Below, piece by piece: positions 5,230 through 42,118 of a stretch of DNA of 64,000 nt. The notes beneath the pieces are model-generated. The model made no database searches, was not told the origin of the DNA, and saw only the letters and a list, made by a program, of their open reading frames with translations. A program made the position numbers and the translations under genes. This stretch comes from the human T2T-CHM13v2.0 reference genome, Homo sapiens, in NCBI RefSeq assembly GCF_009914755.1, contig NC_060940.1. The stretch is one strand, 5' to 3'. Each line of letters begins with the position of its first letter. Position 1 is the stretch's first letter.

Positions 5230-5700
5230 CGCCTGAGTTCCGGGAAAGCCCCTTCCTCACTTACCCTCGCCGGACCTGGGGCCAGGTTCAAGCAGCAGCA
5301 GCAGCAGCTACGGGAGCCGCAGGAGCAGCTTGATTGGCAGGCGCACAGGTAGCGGCCCCATCGGAGGGTGGCAGAGGTGGGGCGGTGCTGCCGGGCCGCC
5401 GGAGGCAGCAAGCCCAGCGGACACACACCCTGGATGCCACGCCTCGGCCCGGCCCTCGACCTCACCTTCCCTCGGGGCCCAGGCGGAACCAGCTAGGGGT
5501 GGGCACCTGGGGTGGCGCAAAGGCATCCTGATCTCTGCATCTTGGTCACTGAAGGGGCTCGAGAGGCCGCGGGGCGCTGGGGACAGGACCGGGAGTCAGG
5601 CCCAGGAAAGTCTCCTCGGAATAAGGGAGGAAAAGGCGCTCTTTTGATGTTATTATTCCCCCAGCCCCTCCCCCGCTCACCTGGGCGCCCAAAGGGGACA
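5230..5700 (-). promoter_or_regulatory. CpG-rich promoter region duplicated with PLA2G10 exon 1
   Basis: High GC and CpG density with GC-box-like motifs around and upstream of exon 1. Confidence 0.55.
5265..5361 (-). pseudogene. PLA2G10P: PLA2G10 (group X secreted phospholipase A2) pseudogene, exon 1 (signal peptide)
   Basis: Reads MGPLPVRLPIKLLLRLP*LLLLLLEPGPRSGE(G)|gtaagt versus recalled PLA2G10 MGPLPVCLPIMLLLLLPSLLLLLLLPGPGSGEA. In-frame TAG at 5308-5310; phase-1 donor at 5263-5264. Confidence 0.9.
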
Positions 5701-5753
5701 GAAGACTTGGAGGAGGGGTAGTCCTGAATTTACTTTAGCATTTTATTTCATTT

Positions 5754-8700
5754 GGCCGGGTGCGAGGTGGCTCACGCCTGTAATCCCAGCACTTTGGAAG
5801 GCCGAGGCTGGCGGATCACCTGAGGTCAGGAGTTCAAAACCAGCCTGGCCAACATGGCGAAGCCGTCTCTACTAAAAACACAAAAATTAGCAGGGCGTGG
5901 TGGTGCGGACCTACAATCCCAGCTACTTGGGAGGCTGAGGCACAGGAATCGCTTGAACACGGAAGGTGGAGGTTGCAGTGAACCAAGATCACTCCACTGC
6001 ACTCCAGCCTGGGTGAGAGCCAGACTCCGTCTCTTTCTCTCCCTCCCTCTCTCTCTCTCTCTGTCAGTCTAGAGAGAGTTGATTGTCCCCAGTCAGTCTC
6101 TCTCAGTCGAGAGAAGGGTGGGGGGGAACGGAGGCTGGGCACAGGGCTCACGCCTGTAATCCCAGCACTTTGGGACACTGAGGCGGGTGGATCACCTGAG
6201 GTCAGGAGTTTGAGACCAGCCTGGCCAACATGGTGAAACCCTGTCTCTACTAAAAATACAAAAAATTCCCTGGGTATGGTGTTGGGCGCCTATAAACCCA
6301 ACTACTCAGGAGGCTGAGGCAGGAGAATCACTTGAACCTAGGAGGCAGAAATTGCAGTGAGCCAAGATCACACCACTGCACTCCAGCCTGGGCAACAAGA
6401 GTAAAACCCTGTCACACACACACAGACACACACACACACACACACACACAAAATTAACCAGGCATGGTGGCATGTGCCTGTAGTCTCAGCGGCTCAGGAG
6501 GCTGAGGTACAAGAATCGCTTGAATTTGGGAGGTGAAGGTTGCAGTGATCCAAGATTGCGCTATTCCACTCCAGCTGGAGCGAGAAGACCGAGACTCCAT
6601 ATCAAAAAAAAAAAAAGTCTGTCTCAAAAAAAAATAAAAATAAAAATAAAAACCAGAAGTCTTGATCTGTGATCTTGGGAAAAGCTGTTCACATCAAGGA
6701 TGCCATCTTCTTCCAGCGAAAAACTTCCCTCTTGTGAGATTATGAACCCAAAGTTCAAGGTCCTGAAGTTTTGCTGTAGTGTGGATGGCAAGGACATTCT
6801 TTCTCTGATGTTCTCAGAAGATCCAATCTTCAGGTTCTAGATTGTGAAGGAATTGATTGTCCCCAGTCAGTGAGCCATAAAAAGCTTTCAGTATCTGGTG
6901 AAAATACACCATACCATAGATCTACTGTTATAATATCAGCCCTCTTGCATGGGAAAGCAACCAGAAAACATGCATTGAAAATGACAGTTGACAATTGAAA
7001 TGTTCAAATTGCCCATGAGGTAGCCAAATGCACCTGAAGCTTTGATTGTCTTCCCAGGAACATGGATTTGACAAACGAAACATTGGTTATGAACTATTTT
7101 AGCAATTTATAAGTCAGCATAGAAATACATATTTAATTTGGACCATTTTATCTTTTCCATGATGAGTCATGGAATGCGGAGCCTTTTATTTTTTGTTTTT
7201 AGACAGAGTTTCATTCTTGTTGCCCAGGTTGGAGTGCAATGGTGCTATCTCGGCTCACCGCAACCTCTGCCTCCTGGGTTCAAGCGACTCTCCTGCCTCA
7301 GCCTCCCGAGTAGCTGGGATTACAGGCATGAGCCACCACGCCTGGCTAATTTTTTGTATTTTTAGTACAGATGGGGTTTCACCATGGTCTCGATCTCCTG
7401 ACCTCGTGATCCACCCACCTTGGCCTCCCAAACTGCTGGGGTTACAGGCTTGAGCCACTGTGCCCGGCTTAATTTTTGTACTTTTAGTAGAGACACGGTT
7501 TCACCATGTTGGCCAGGATGGTCTCCATCTCTTGACCTCATGATCTGCCTACATTGGCCTCCCAAAGTGTTGGGATTACAGGCATGAGCCACCACACCCG
7601 GCCCCCCTTTTTTTTGAGATGCAGTTTCGCTCTTGTTGCCCAGGCTGGAGTGCAATGGCGTGATCTCAGCTCACTGCAACCTCCGCCTCCTGGCTTCAAG
7701 CAGTTCTCCTGCCTCAGCCTCCCAAGTAGCTAGGATTACAGGCATGCCCCACCACACCTGGCTAATTTTGTATTTTTTTTTTTTTTTTTTAACTAGAGAT
7801 GGGGTTCCACCATGTTGGTCAGGCTGGTCTTGAACTCTTGACCTCAAGTGATCCACTCACCTCGGCCTCCCAAAGTGTTAGGATTACAGGCGTGAGCCAC
7901 TGCACCCGGCCAGCATTTTCTTATAGTAAAGAAAGTGAAACCACAGGTTGTTGAAAGAAGGAAGAAAGAGCGTGAATCTTGGTAGGAAAAAGAAGGAAAG
8001 CAAAAGGAAACAAAAACTTCCAGCTGTCTGGCTTGTATTGGCATTTACAATGTTTGCTGGTGTCCCACTTTGATCAGTGAAATGTGGCTGGGAGGAACCT
8101 GTGTCACTTTTTGTTTTTTCTTTTTGAGACTCACTCTGTAGCCCAGGCTGGAGTGCAGTGGTGCAATCTTGGCTCACTGCAAGCTCCGCCTCCTGGATTC
8201 TCACCATTCTCCTGCCTCAGCCTCCTGAGTAGCTGGGACTACAGGCGCCCGCCACAACGCCTGGCTAATTTTTGTGTTTTCAGTAGAGACGGGGTTTCAC
8301 TGTGTTAGCCAGGATGATCTTGATCTCCTGATCTTGTGATCCGCCCGCCTCGGCCTCCCAAAGTGCTGGGATTACAGGCGTGAGCCACCACGCCCAGCCT
8401 GAACCCCTGTCATTTTTTAGCAGAAACTTTCAGAGTCAGTAAGTGGCCAGGCATTTCTCTTTTTTTTGTGCCACAGGACTCTGGATGTTTCCAATGCAGA
8501 CTAATCCAAGGCTGCTGTGGATGTGTCCTATGGGAGAGAAATCGACTTTGTCTATTTCTCTATGGAGAATGGGGGGTGCACCAGGCAGGATGACTCATGC
8601 CTGTAATTCCAGCACTTTGGGAGCCCAAGGCTGGTGGATCACTTCAGGCCAGGAGTTCAAGACCAGCCTGGCTAACACAGTGAAACCCCGTCTCTACTAA

Positions 8701-8885
8701 AAATACAAAAATTAGCCAGGTGTGGTGGGGCATGCCTGTAATCCCAGCTACTCAGGAGGCTGAGGCAGGAAAATTGCTTGAACCAGGAGGTGGAGGTTGT
8801 AGTGAGCCAAGGTCACGCCACTGCCCTCCTGCCTGGGCAACAGAGCGAGATTCTTATCTCCATAAAATGAAACAAAGCAAAACAA
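5754..8885. repeat. Dense Alu cluster, both orientations and nested, with a (CA)n tract at ~6413-6450
   Basis: Multiple Alu heads, linkers and tails. Confidence 0.85.
6655..7185. mobile_element. Probable ERV1-class internal relic (subfamily not assigned)
   Basis: Resembles recalled MER4-group internal sequence; similar-looking sequence at ~15450-16210. Confidence 0.35.
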
Positions 8886-41600: not shown

Positions 41601-41735
41601 AATTTTTGCATTTTTAGTAGAGATGGGGTTTCACCATATTGGCCAGGCTGGTCTTGAACTCCTGACCTCAAGTGATCTGCCCGCCTCGGCCTCCCAAAGT
41701 GCTGGGATTACAGGAGTTAGCCACCGCTCCTGGCC
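38630..41735. repeat. Alu cluster in PLA2G10P intron 2, with MIR pieces and (GT)n at ~41235-41296
   Basis: Multiple Alu signatures in both orientations. Confidence 0.85.
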
Positions 41736-41967
41736 AATTTTTTAAGGCAACGTTTTCAGCCCATGGCCAGGGTAAGGGGCAGCTGGTACCAAGATCTGGC
41801 TTCACTGGCCATGTTATCCAAGAGGCCTCTGCCTGCCTGCAAAGTAGTACTGCACACTGGGATCTCCCTGGACCAAATCCCAGCTTCAGTTTTGGGTACT
41901 TCCTCATAAGCCTTGACTACCCCAGAGTGTGAGGGATTTTGTAGCCTGGTCCCAGGCATGCACTCAC

Positions 41968-42118
41968 CAGTCAATGGCATCGCAGGGCTGGCCATGGCCT
42001 CCCAAGCCACAAAAGGAACCATATTTCGTATAGGCGATGGGAGTCTAGGGACCAACACAACCCACAATTCCTGCCAGTTCCAGGATCCCACGCCGGTGCA
42101 CACATAATATCCTGGAGG
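41968..42118 (-). pseudogene. PLA2G10P: PLA2G10 pseudogene exon 2 (propeptide and Ca2+-binding loop)
   Basis: cccAG|(A)SRILCVHRRGILELAGIVGCVGP*TPIAYTKYGSFCGLGGHGQPCDAID(W)|gtgagt, 151 nt. Stop at 42045-42047; YGCFCG changed to YGSFCG at 42015-42017. Confidence 0.92.

What the first reader, a model, noticed from the sequence alone, without database searches (positions are those of the whole stretch)
5265..42118. PLA2G10 pseudogene exons in permuted order (2, 3 ... 1)
Seen: on the minus strand exon 2 (42118-41968) and exon 3 (38512-38406) come first, while exon 1 (5361-5265) lies 33 kb downstream on the same strand. No exon 1 is visible upstream of exon 2. The exon 1 donor (GAG G|gt) and exon 2 start (ag|CC TCC) are phase-compatible (E-A-S). 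Closing the block at the SVAs restores the order 1-2-3 with an intron 1 of about 4.1 kb (2078 + 2058 bp) excluding the SVA. This supports circular permutation independently of the TSD evidence.
Basis: partly seen in the sequence, partly recalled or inferred. Interest (0 to 1): 0.75.

Follow-up and report, generated by a model that had tools for sequence, protein, structure and literature searches.

The report
Permuted PLA2G10 pseudogene around NPIPB9
The scrambled exon order of this dead phospholipase gene copy is real and marks a published event in which a stretch of DNA carrying the NPIP gene was inserted here by recombination between two SVA retrotransposons, so it is already known.

Summary
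Confirmed and already published. They surround NPIPB9 in the order 2, 3 ... 1.

The block is bounded by two full-length SVAs in the gene's orientation (1725-3186 and 44180-45771). The two intron-1 halves are contiguous, with no SVA, in 4 of 4 SVA-free paralogues on 16p13, and they overlap only by a 7-base target-site duplication. The outer flanks carry a second 7-base duplication, so the duplications are crossed between the two SVAs.

This is the cassette of Damert 2022 (PMC9132208). That paper proposes a circular lcr16a intermediate, integrated downstream of EIF3C by SVA_D x SVA_B recombination.

One refinement appears new. The join of the NPIP 3' end to PLA2G10 intron 3 lies inside an intron-3 Alu. 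SVA-free NPIPA-type copies carry the same join with a 298-base deletion. The join therefore probably predates the SVA event rather than being made when the circle closed. That Alu encodes the NPIPB-specific C-terminus.

The parts
1718..1724 (.). Outer target-site duplication ACAAAAA. It ends the left outer flank, a left-arm Alu fragment downstream of EIF3C.
   Evidence: The identical 7-mer lies at 45772-45778.
1725..3186 (-). SVA-A, full-length. Poly-A lies at 1725-1751 (read as poly-T on the + strand), followed by SINE-R, VNTR, Alu-like region and CCCTCT hexamers up to 3186. Its 5' end abuts PLA2G10 intron 1 and its 3' end abuts the EIF3C flank.
   Evidence: Its SINE-R gives best non-paralogous genome hits of 96-97% and its Alu-like part 96-97%.
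3187..5264 (-). Exon-1-side half of PLA2G10 intron 1. It begins with the inner target-site duplication CCTGTTT (3187-3193) and the right half of an Alu split by the SVA.
5265..5361 (-). PLA2G10 pseudogene exon 1 (signal peptide), with one in-frame TAG and a GT donor.
5362..7455 (-). Former PLA2G10 promoter and upstream region, collinear with the real locus. It leads head-to-head towards NPIP.
   Evidence: window 4806-6578 and 6450-7455 against C16:14731196-14734121.
16366..37106 (+). NPIPB9 body (lcr16a core), up to the end of the NPIP-derived part of the last coding exon.
   Evidence: Hub annotation; window 27283-36888 against the NPIPA-type locus, 2.26% substitutions.
37107..37396 (+). The join of NPIP exon 8 to PLA2G10 intron 3 lies at 37106/37107. 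Beyond it come the right arm of an intron-3 Alu, a 42-bp tandem repeat (37122-37283, 3.9 copies) and the Alu tail. This stretch encodes the last 79 residues and the stop of NPIPB9. It is the stretch missing from NPIPA-type copies.
37397..38405 (-). Remainder of the retained part of PLA2G10 intron 3.
38406..38512 (-). PLA2G10 pseudogene exon 3.
38513..41967 (-). Intron 2. It includes 39654-40865, which the real gene has lost between two inverted Alus.
41968..42118 (-). PLA2G10 pseudogene exon 2, with an in-frame TAG at the Arg codon.
42119..44179 (-). Exon-2-side half of intron 1. It ends with the left half of the split Alu and the inner target-site duplication copy CATGTTT (44173-44179, one mismatch).
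44180..45771 (-). SVA-B, full-length. Its poly-A abuts intron 1 and its CCCTCT end abuts the outer flank.
   Evidence: Its SINE-R gives best non-paralogous hits of 98-99% and its Alu-like part only 91-93%.
45772..45778 (.). Outer target-site duplication ACAAAAA. It starts the right outer flank, the right part of an Alu.

Best explanation
The window holds the NPIPB9 copy of the lcr16a duplicon in the published SVA-flanked form. The cassette (about 1725-45771) is one period of a repeating unit, [PLA2G10 5' part - NPIP], opened in PLA2G10 intron 1 at the site of an SVA insertion. It was inserted into a second SVA that already sat downstream of EIF3C, by homologous exchange between the two SVAs. 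This left two reciprocal chimeric SVAs with crossed target-site duplications.

On the minus strand the cassette therefore reads exon 2, exon 3, NPIP (reversed), exon 1.

Shown: the exons; the SVAs; both pairs of duplications; the empty site; the collinearity with the real locus.

Inferred: (a) the intermediate was a circle, as Damert 2022 proposed; (b) my refinement, that the join of the NPIP 3' end to PLA2G10 intron 3 already existed in a tandem-like donor before the SVA inserted. In that case the circle, if there was one, arose by homologous pop-out of one unit and not by end-joining that created the join.

The stated confidence is for the whole statement including (b). The core claim, a real permutation made by SVA x SVA exchange, I put at about 0.9.
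For: Exons.

SVA anatomy.

Inner duplication and empty site: CCTGTTT at 3187-3193 and CATGTTT at 44173-44179, with a single CCTGTTT at C16:14770539-14770545. The two halves are contiguous in 4 of 4 SVA-free copies.

Outer duplication: ACAAAAA on both outer sides.

Chimeric SVAs:
- The two SVAs are only 83-88% alike, whereas flanking paralogues differ by 0.04-1.3%.
- The 38 best non-paralogous relatives of SVA-A's 5' part and the 36 of SVA-B's 3' part share 4 elements.
- SVA-B 5' and SVA-A 3' share 1 element.
- The two parts of one and the same SVA share 0.

Published model for this copy: PMC9132208, section 7 and table S5.

For (b):
- An NPIPA-type locus is collinear with the window from the NPIP body (2.26%, 216/9569), across the join, through exon 3, exon 2 and intron 1b (2.5%), into 991 bp of intron 1a. 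It has an empty SVA site.
- The join motif J is present in the window and in 6 of 6 fetched NPIPB-type copies. J', the same join minus window 37097-37396, is present in 4 of 4 fetched NPIPA-type copies. Neither is present in the real gene.
- One search lists eight 16p13 loci with the J' pattern.
- Next to the join, the window and the NPIPA-type copy share AAACTAA(C/G)GAAG where the real gene reads AAACAAACAAAC.
- Informative sites favour grouping the NPIPB-type with the NPIPA-flank copies: 176, against 74 and 57, of 5488 sites.
Against: The site support for (b) is uneven. Two 700-base bins supply 93 of the 176 grouping sites. In intron 1b the three lineages are nearly star-like, with about 43, 40 and 25 sites.

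There is no outgroup, and gene conversion among paralogues could blur the signal.

J' could in principle be a separate break, 177 bp away in the intron and about 10 bases away in the NPIP repeat unit.

The stop in exon 2 is TGA in the NPIPA-flank copies but TAG in the NPIPB copies. Only the first-base CpG change is shared.

No extant human copy carries the SVA in a contiguous intron 1, so the donor is not observed.

A panel test of the Alu-like regions went against the simple chimera expectation. In 15 of 15 comparable loci (of 28 in the panel), chosen for likeness to SVA-A's SINE-R, the locus was closer to SVA-A's Alu-like part than to SVA-B's. I read this as uninformative, because SVA-B's Alu-like part is at most 93% like anything in the genome.

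Nothing in the sequence shows that the intermediate was circular.
Confidence: 0.6

Rival explanations
1. Damert's model as written. A linear lcr16a copy (PLA2G10 intron 3 to the NPIP 3' end), already carrying the SVA_D in intron 1, circularised. That closure itself created the NPIP 3' / intron 3 join. The circle then integrated through SVA_D x SVA_B recombination. Under this model, the similar join in NPIPA-type copies arose separately or by later exchange.
For: It explains the window's structure equally well. All NPIPB copies in table S5 share one join. Intron 1b is nearly star-like among the three lineages, which would allow separate origins.
Against: Copies with an empty SVA site carry NPIP joined to the same intron. 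The break is 177 bp away on the intron side and at the same phase of the NPIP repeat unit. Divergence is uniform at 2.3-2.5% across the join. An SVA does not excise precisely, so these copies cannot descend from the SVA-bearing circle.
Confidence: 0.25
2. No free circle was involved. A break in the SVA downstream of EIF3C was repaired from a tandem donor with two SVA-bearing units, by a double crossover or by break-induced / synthesis-dependent copying from one SVA to the next. This gives the same product.
For: The product is identical. A tandem-like arrangement of PLA2G10 5' part, NPIP and PLA2G10 5' part exists today at C16:14.72-14.77 Mb.
Against: It needs a donor with the SVA in two successive units, and none is seen. 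All SVA-free copies have the empty site. Circles are a documented route for such duplications according to PMC9132208 (discussion read).
Confidence: 0.12
3. The order is an assembly artefact, or the exon-like stretches are chance matches or independent fragments from different paralogues.
For: None found.
Against: E-values run down to 9.5e-21 and splice sites are intact. The same structure recurs in paralogues at 98-99%. It is reported from BAC clones and from hg38. Both halves show equal distances to the real gene.
Confidence: 0.01

Closest known systems
SVA-flanked lcr16a cassette of NPIPB9 (Damert 2022, Mol Biol Evol 39:msac103, PMC9132208, fig. 4 and table S5)
   Same: It is the same locus and the same features. 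Two full-length SVAs lie antisense to NPIP. The inner junctions are in PLA2G10 intron 1 and the outer junctions are downstream of EIF3C. The target-site duplications are crossed. PLA2G10 exons 3 and 2 lie behind NPIP, and exon 1 lies in front.
   Different: The paper attributes the NPIP 3' / intron 3 join to the circularisation step, and its text and table S5 treat only NPIPB copies. Here the join is also found, shortened by 298 bases, in SVA-free NPIPA-type copies. I could not see the paper's supplementary figures (a PDF).
Segmental duplications made through circular DNA intermediates (Chicote et al. 2020, cited in PMC9132208; I did not read that paper)
   Same: The copy is a rotated version of the source order.
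   Different: Integration here is by homology between two SVAs. The circle may have come from homologous pop-out of a repeat unit rather than from end-joining.
'Alu insertion in exon 8' of NPIPB (Cantsilieris et al. 2020, PMC7419210; passages read)
   Same: It is the same Alu-derived stretch, and it gives NPIPB its own C-terminal repeat.
   Different: In the window that Alu arm, its tail and the unique bases after it are collinear with an Alu in PLA2G10 intron 3. It therefore looks like the fusion point with that intron, later deleted in NPIPA-type copies, rather than a fresh Alu insertion.

Membership tests
PLA2G10 unprocessed (duplicated) pseudogene | Exon sequences of group X secretory PLA2 | tested here: met
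   The best hits are human group X sPLA2 chains: 35/35 identical for exon 3, 22/25 for the exon 2 part, and exon 1 E 6.5e-6.
PLA2G10 unprocessed (duplicated) pseudogene | Introns retained with splice sites, and collinear with the parent gene's introns | tested here: met
   (AG/GT at all three exons). (introns align to C16:14724532-14731175).
PLA2G10 unprocessed (duplicated) pseudogene | Disabled reading frame or missing parts | tested here: met
   (TAG in exon 1 and TAG in exon 2). (no exon 4 in the window). (the parent gene has exons 1-4 open).
SVA retrotransposon, full-length | CCCTCT hexamers, Alu-like region, VNTR, SINE-R and poly-A, in that order | tested here: met
   The SINE-R parts have 1925 and 1577 first-look candidates in the genome. 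The domain names are recalled and taken from PMC9132208.
SVA retrotransposon, full-length | Each element flanked by its own matching target-site duplication | tested here: not met
   The duplications match across the two elements (3187-3193 with 44173-44179; 1718-1724 with 45772-45778) and not within one element. This is the signature of exchange between two insertions.
Damert 2022 lcr16a SVA cassette | Inner junctions contiguous in PLA2G10 intron 1 | tested here: met
   Contiguous in 4 of 4 SVA-free paralogues.
Damert 2022 lcr16a SVA cassette | Outer junctions contiguous downstream of EIF3C | tested here: inconclusive
   The shared ACAAAAA and complementary Alu parts are seen. The human genome holds no empty copy: the left flank has 2 copies and the right flank has 4, all next to SVAs. 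The paper shows contiguity in rhesus.
Damert 2022 lcr16a SVA cassette | Reciprocal SVA_B / SVA_D chimeras | tested here: inconclusive
   Supported by shared nearest relatives (4, 1, 0 and 0) and by identity levels. Not supported by the panel test. I had no subfamily consensus sequences, so the names B and D rest on the paper.
Duplication through a circular DNA intermediate | The copy is a rotation of the source order | tested here: met
Duplication through a circular DNA intermediate | A closure junction created by the circle, absent from all non-descendant copies | tested here: not met
   The NPIP / intron 3 join, in shortened form, is also present in SVA-free NPIPA-type copies.
Duplication through a circular DNA intermediate | Physical existence of the circle | not testable with these tools
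   Sequence alone cannot separate a circle from two-ended repair off a tandem donor.

The most novel reading that the evidence does not exclude
NPIP exon 8 was fused to an Alu in PLA2G10 intron 3 once, before the NPIPA and NPIPB lineages of African apes split and before the SVA entered intron 1. That single fusion supplies the NPIPB-specific C-terminal repeat. After a 298-base deletion, it also supplies the last codon (Asn) and the stop of NPIPA. The 'Alu insertion in exon 8' is this fusion point. The NPIPB founder unit was then released from a tandem-like [PLA2G10 5' part - NPIP] array by homologous pop-out, so no new join was needed, and it was captured by the SVA downstream of EIF3C.
Probability: 0.55. 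Interest if true: 0.45.

Novelty: already known. Interest (0 to 1): 0.3.

Why it matters
The event is thought to have founded the NPIPB gene family of African apes and humans. The resulting 16p11.2 duplications underlie recurrent disease-linked rearrangements (background from PMC9132208 and PMC7419210).

The refinement, if it holds, changes one step of the published model. A pre-existing tandem unit would replace a join made by circularisation. It would also explain where the C-termini of both NPIP protein types come from.

Tried and rejected
1. Panel test of SVA chimerism. I took 28 loci picked for likeness to SVA-A's SINE-R. In 15 of 15 loci with a usable Alu-like region, the locus was closer to SVA-A's Alu-like part than to SVA-B's. 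This is the opposite of the simple expectation. I rejected it as a test because SVA-B's Alu-like part is at most 93% like any genomic SVA.

2. A matching panel of relatives of SVA-B's SINE-R could not be fetched. I used hit lists without loci instead.

3. The 1.2-kb difference in intron 2 (window 39654-40865) looked like a shared derived insertion uniting the window with the NPIPA-flank copies. It is in fact a deletion in the real gene between two inverted Alus, so it says nothing about grouping.

4. The 'shared stop codon' in exon 2 is weaker than it first looked. It is TGA in the NPIPA-flank copies and TAG in the NPIPB copies.

5. A short motif for the empty SVA site matched many Alus and was dropped. 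Contiguity rests on the alignments instead.

7. I did not work out the junction K, where the NPIPA-flank copies leave intron 1 after 991 bp, nor the exon-1-bearing fragments at C16:29.386 and 22.28 Mb.
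Full report
**Observation**

The three exon-like stretches are real.
- Exon 3 (38406-38512, minus strand) gives 35 residues identical to human group X secretory phospholipase A2 (E 9.5e-21).
- The part of exon 2 (41968-42118) after its stop gives 25 residues that match residues 16-40 of the same protein (E 1.2e-10).
- Exon 1 (5265-5361), read with X at its TAG, aligns to residues 1-32 of the precursor (E 6.5e-6).

All three exons keep AG and GT borders. The exon 1 / exon 2 phase reads E-A-S, and there are two in-frame stops. Each exon occurs once in the window. 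Exon 4 is absent.

**The SVAs and the duplications**

Two full-length SVAs lie on the minus strand: SVA-A at 1725-3186 and SVA-B at 44180-45771. Each has poly-A, SINE-R, VNTR, an Alu-like region and CCCTCT hexamers.

The intron-1 half next to exon 1 starts at 3187 with CCTGTTT. The half next to exon 2 ends at 44179 with CATGTTT. The outer sides carry ACAAAAA at 1718-1724 and at 45772-45778. Each SVA therefore has unlike duplications on its own two sides, while the duplications match across the pair.

The window's genome could be searched. The real PLA2G10 gene lies at C16:14.71-14.73 Mb, with exons 1-4 open. There the order is window[37241-44179], then window[3783-7455], then NPIP. That is the window's order rotated at the SVA site.

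In four SVA-free paralogues (C16:14.77, 15.36, 16.41 and 18.32 Mb) the two intron halves are contiguous, with a single CCTGTTT between them. This holds in 4 of 4. The halves form the two parts of one Alu.

Both halves are equally far from the real gene: 4.1-4.5% and 4.3-4.65% substitutions. They are similarly far from the SVA-free paralogues: 2.5-3.5% and 2.45-2.6%.

**What is known**

Two searches found only two papers in the held library that contain both lcr16a and PLA2G10.

Damert 2022 (PMC9132208; I read the abstract, sections 7-9 and table S5) describes exactly this copy, NPIPB9:
- two reciprocal SVA_D/SVA_B chimeras;
- inner junctions in PLA2G10 intron 1;
- outer junctions downstream of EIF3C;
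- exons 3 and 2 moved behind NPIP.

The paper's model is a circular lcr16a intermediate integrated by SVA-SVA recombination. It is proposed as the founding event of the NPIPB clade. The finding is therefore already known.

**Test of the chimeras**

I had no subfamily consensus sequences. The two SVAs are only 83-88% alike.

| SVA part | Best non-paralogous genome hits |
|---|---|
| SVA-A SINE-R | 96-97% |
| SVA-B SINE-R | 98-99% |
| SVA-A Alu-like part | 96-97% |
| SVA-B Alu-like part | 91-93% |

I then compared the lists of nearest relatives.
- The list for SVA-A's 5' part (38 non-paralogous hits) and the list for SVA-B's 3' part (36) share 4 elements.
- SVA-B's 5' part and SVA-A's 3' part share 1.
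- The two parts of the same SVA share 0 in both cases.

This fits a reciprocal exchange. A cruder panel test went the other way, 15 of 15. I regard that test as uninformative, because SVA-B's 5' part is far from everything in the genome. A second panel could not be fetched.

**A refinement**

The join between NPIP and PLA2G10 intron 3 lies at 37106/37107. NPIP's 63-bp coding repeat runs into the right arm of an Alu. That arm, its tail and the unique bases after it are collinear with an Alu in intron 3 of the real gene at C16:14724522 onward. A 42-bp tandem repeat (37122-37283) grew out of that Alu arm.

Read in the NPIPB9 frame, the last 79 residues (ATQEAE...RINP, then the stop) come from this stretch.

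Eight 16p13 loci of the NPIPA type also have NPIP followed by intron 3, exon 3 and so on, but they lack window 37097-37396. The name NPIPA is recalled from their position and comes from no call.

One of these loci is collinear with the window from the NPIP body across the join to 991 bp of the exon-1 half of intron 1. Its SVA site is empty. Divergence is uniform at 2.26-2.5%.

The full join motif is present in the window and in 6 of 6 fetched NPIPB-type copies. The shortened join is present in 4 of 4 fetched NPIPA-type copies. Neither is present in the real gene.

SVAs do not excise precisely, so the SVA-free copies cannot descend from the SVA-bearing unit. The join therefore most likely predates the SVA insertion. 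The published step 'circularisation joins the NPIP 3' end to intron 3' is then probably not what made it. A circle, if there was one, could have popped out of a tandem-like array by homologous recombination.

**Weak points of the refinement**
- Site support for grouping the NPIPB-type and NPIPA-flank copies is 176 against 74 and 57, of 5488 sites. Two bins give 93 of the 176, and intron 1b is almost star-like.
- There is no outgroup.
- The exon-2 stop differs between the groups: TGA against TAG.
- The 1.2-kb indel in intron 2 is a deletion in the real gene and is uninformative.

Neither paper's text, nor table S5, mentions PLA2G10 sequence behind NPIPA copies. Cantsilieris 2020 (passages only) calls the Alu stretch an insertion in exon 8.

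**Verdict**

The event is already published, so interest is low to moderate. The refinement deserves a check against ape assemblies.

Noticed in passing
window 37107-37346: The last 79 residues and the stop of NPIPB9 are encoded by the right arm of an Alu that belongs to PLA2G10 intron 3, expanded into a 42-bp (14-residue) tandem repeat. The literature calls this an Alu insertion in exon 8. Here it is collinear with the intron-3 Alu and its unique downstream bases.
   Followed up: yes
window 37167-37208: The 42-base 'intron' between the last two annotated NPIPB9 coding parts is exactly one unit of the 42-bp coding repeat, and it is in frame. It looks like a repeat-number difference between the reference mRNA and this genome rather than a spliced intron.
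   Followed up: partly
L013/L011, C16:14763800-14763830 (also C16:16.406, 15.368 and 18.325 Mb): In NPIPA-type copies the NPIP coding repeat runs straight into PLA2G10 intron-3 sequence, ...CTCAAGA|AACTAAGG. In the frame I recall for NPIPA (ending ...RMIISRN) the last codon (Asn) and the stop would come from the intron-3 side. The frame is recalled and was not tested.
   Followed up: partly
window 3187-3386: Substitutions cluster in the half Alu next to the 5' end of SVA-A. Of the 27 differences from the SVA-free paralogue over window 3187-3560 (374 bases), 22 lie in the first 200 aligned columns. Ten of the 27 are in CpG context. Window 3187-3521 is 7.8-8.1% diverged, against 2.5-3.5% further on. 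The intron half on the other side of the SVA site shows no such excess. The NPIPB6-side copy shares the pattern.
   Followed up: partly
L009/L010, C16:14726937 and C16:14730123-14730228: The functional PLA2G10 gene has lost two stretches that its pseudogene copies keep. One is about 1.2 kb of intron 2 between two inverted Alus (window 39654-40865). The other is about 0.6 kb of intron 1 at the SVA site region (window 3187-3782), apparently between Alus.
   Followed up: partly
window 42045-42047 and paralogues: The Arg codon CGA of exon 2 is TGA in the four NPIPA-flank copies and TAG in the NPIPB-type copies. A Thr to Ile change and a silent change nearby are shared by both groups.
   Followed up: partly
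L011, C16:14771556/7 (also C16:16414040): The NPIPA-flank copies leave intron 1 after 991 bp, at the equivalent of window 4177. They continue into sequence that I recall as the 3' part of an L1 element. Intron 1 does not resume within the next 2.4 kb.
   Followed up: partly
L026 (C16:29386716-29388651) and L027 (C16:22281935-22283046): Two further fragments of the exon-1 half of intron 1 start at the equivalent of window 3522, without the SVA junction. The first of them includes exon 1. Their distance to the window changes along their length, from 0.8% to 3.4%, which suggests a mosaic or conversion.
   Followed up: no
window 4892-5972: The two RefSeq 'enhancer' features cover the dead PLA2G10 exon 1 and its former promoter, which faces NPIPB9 head to head.
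   Followed up: no
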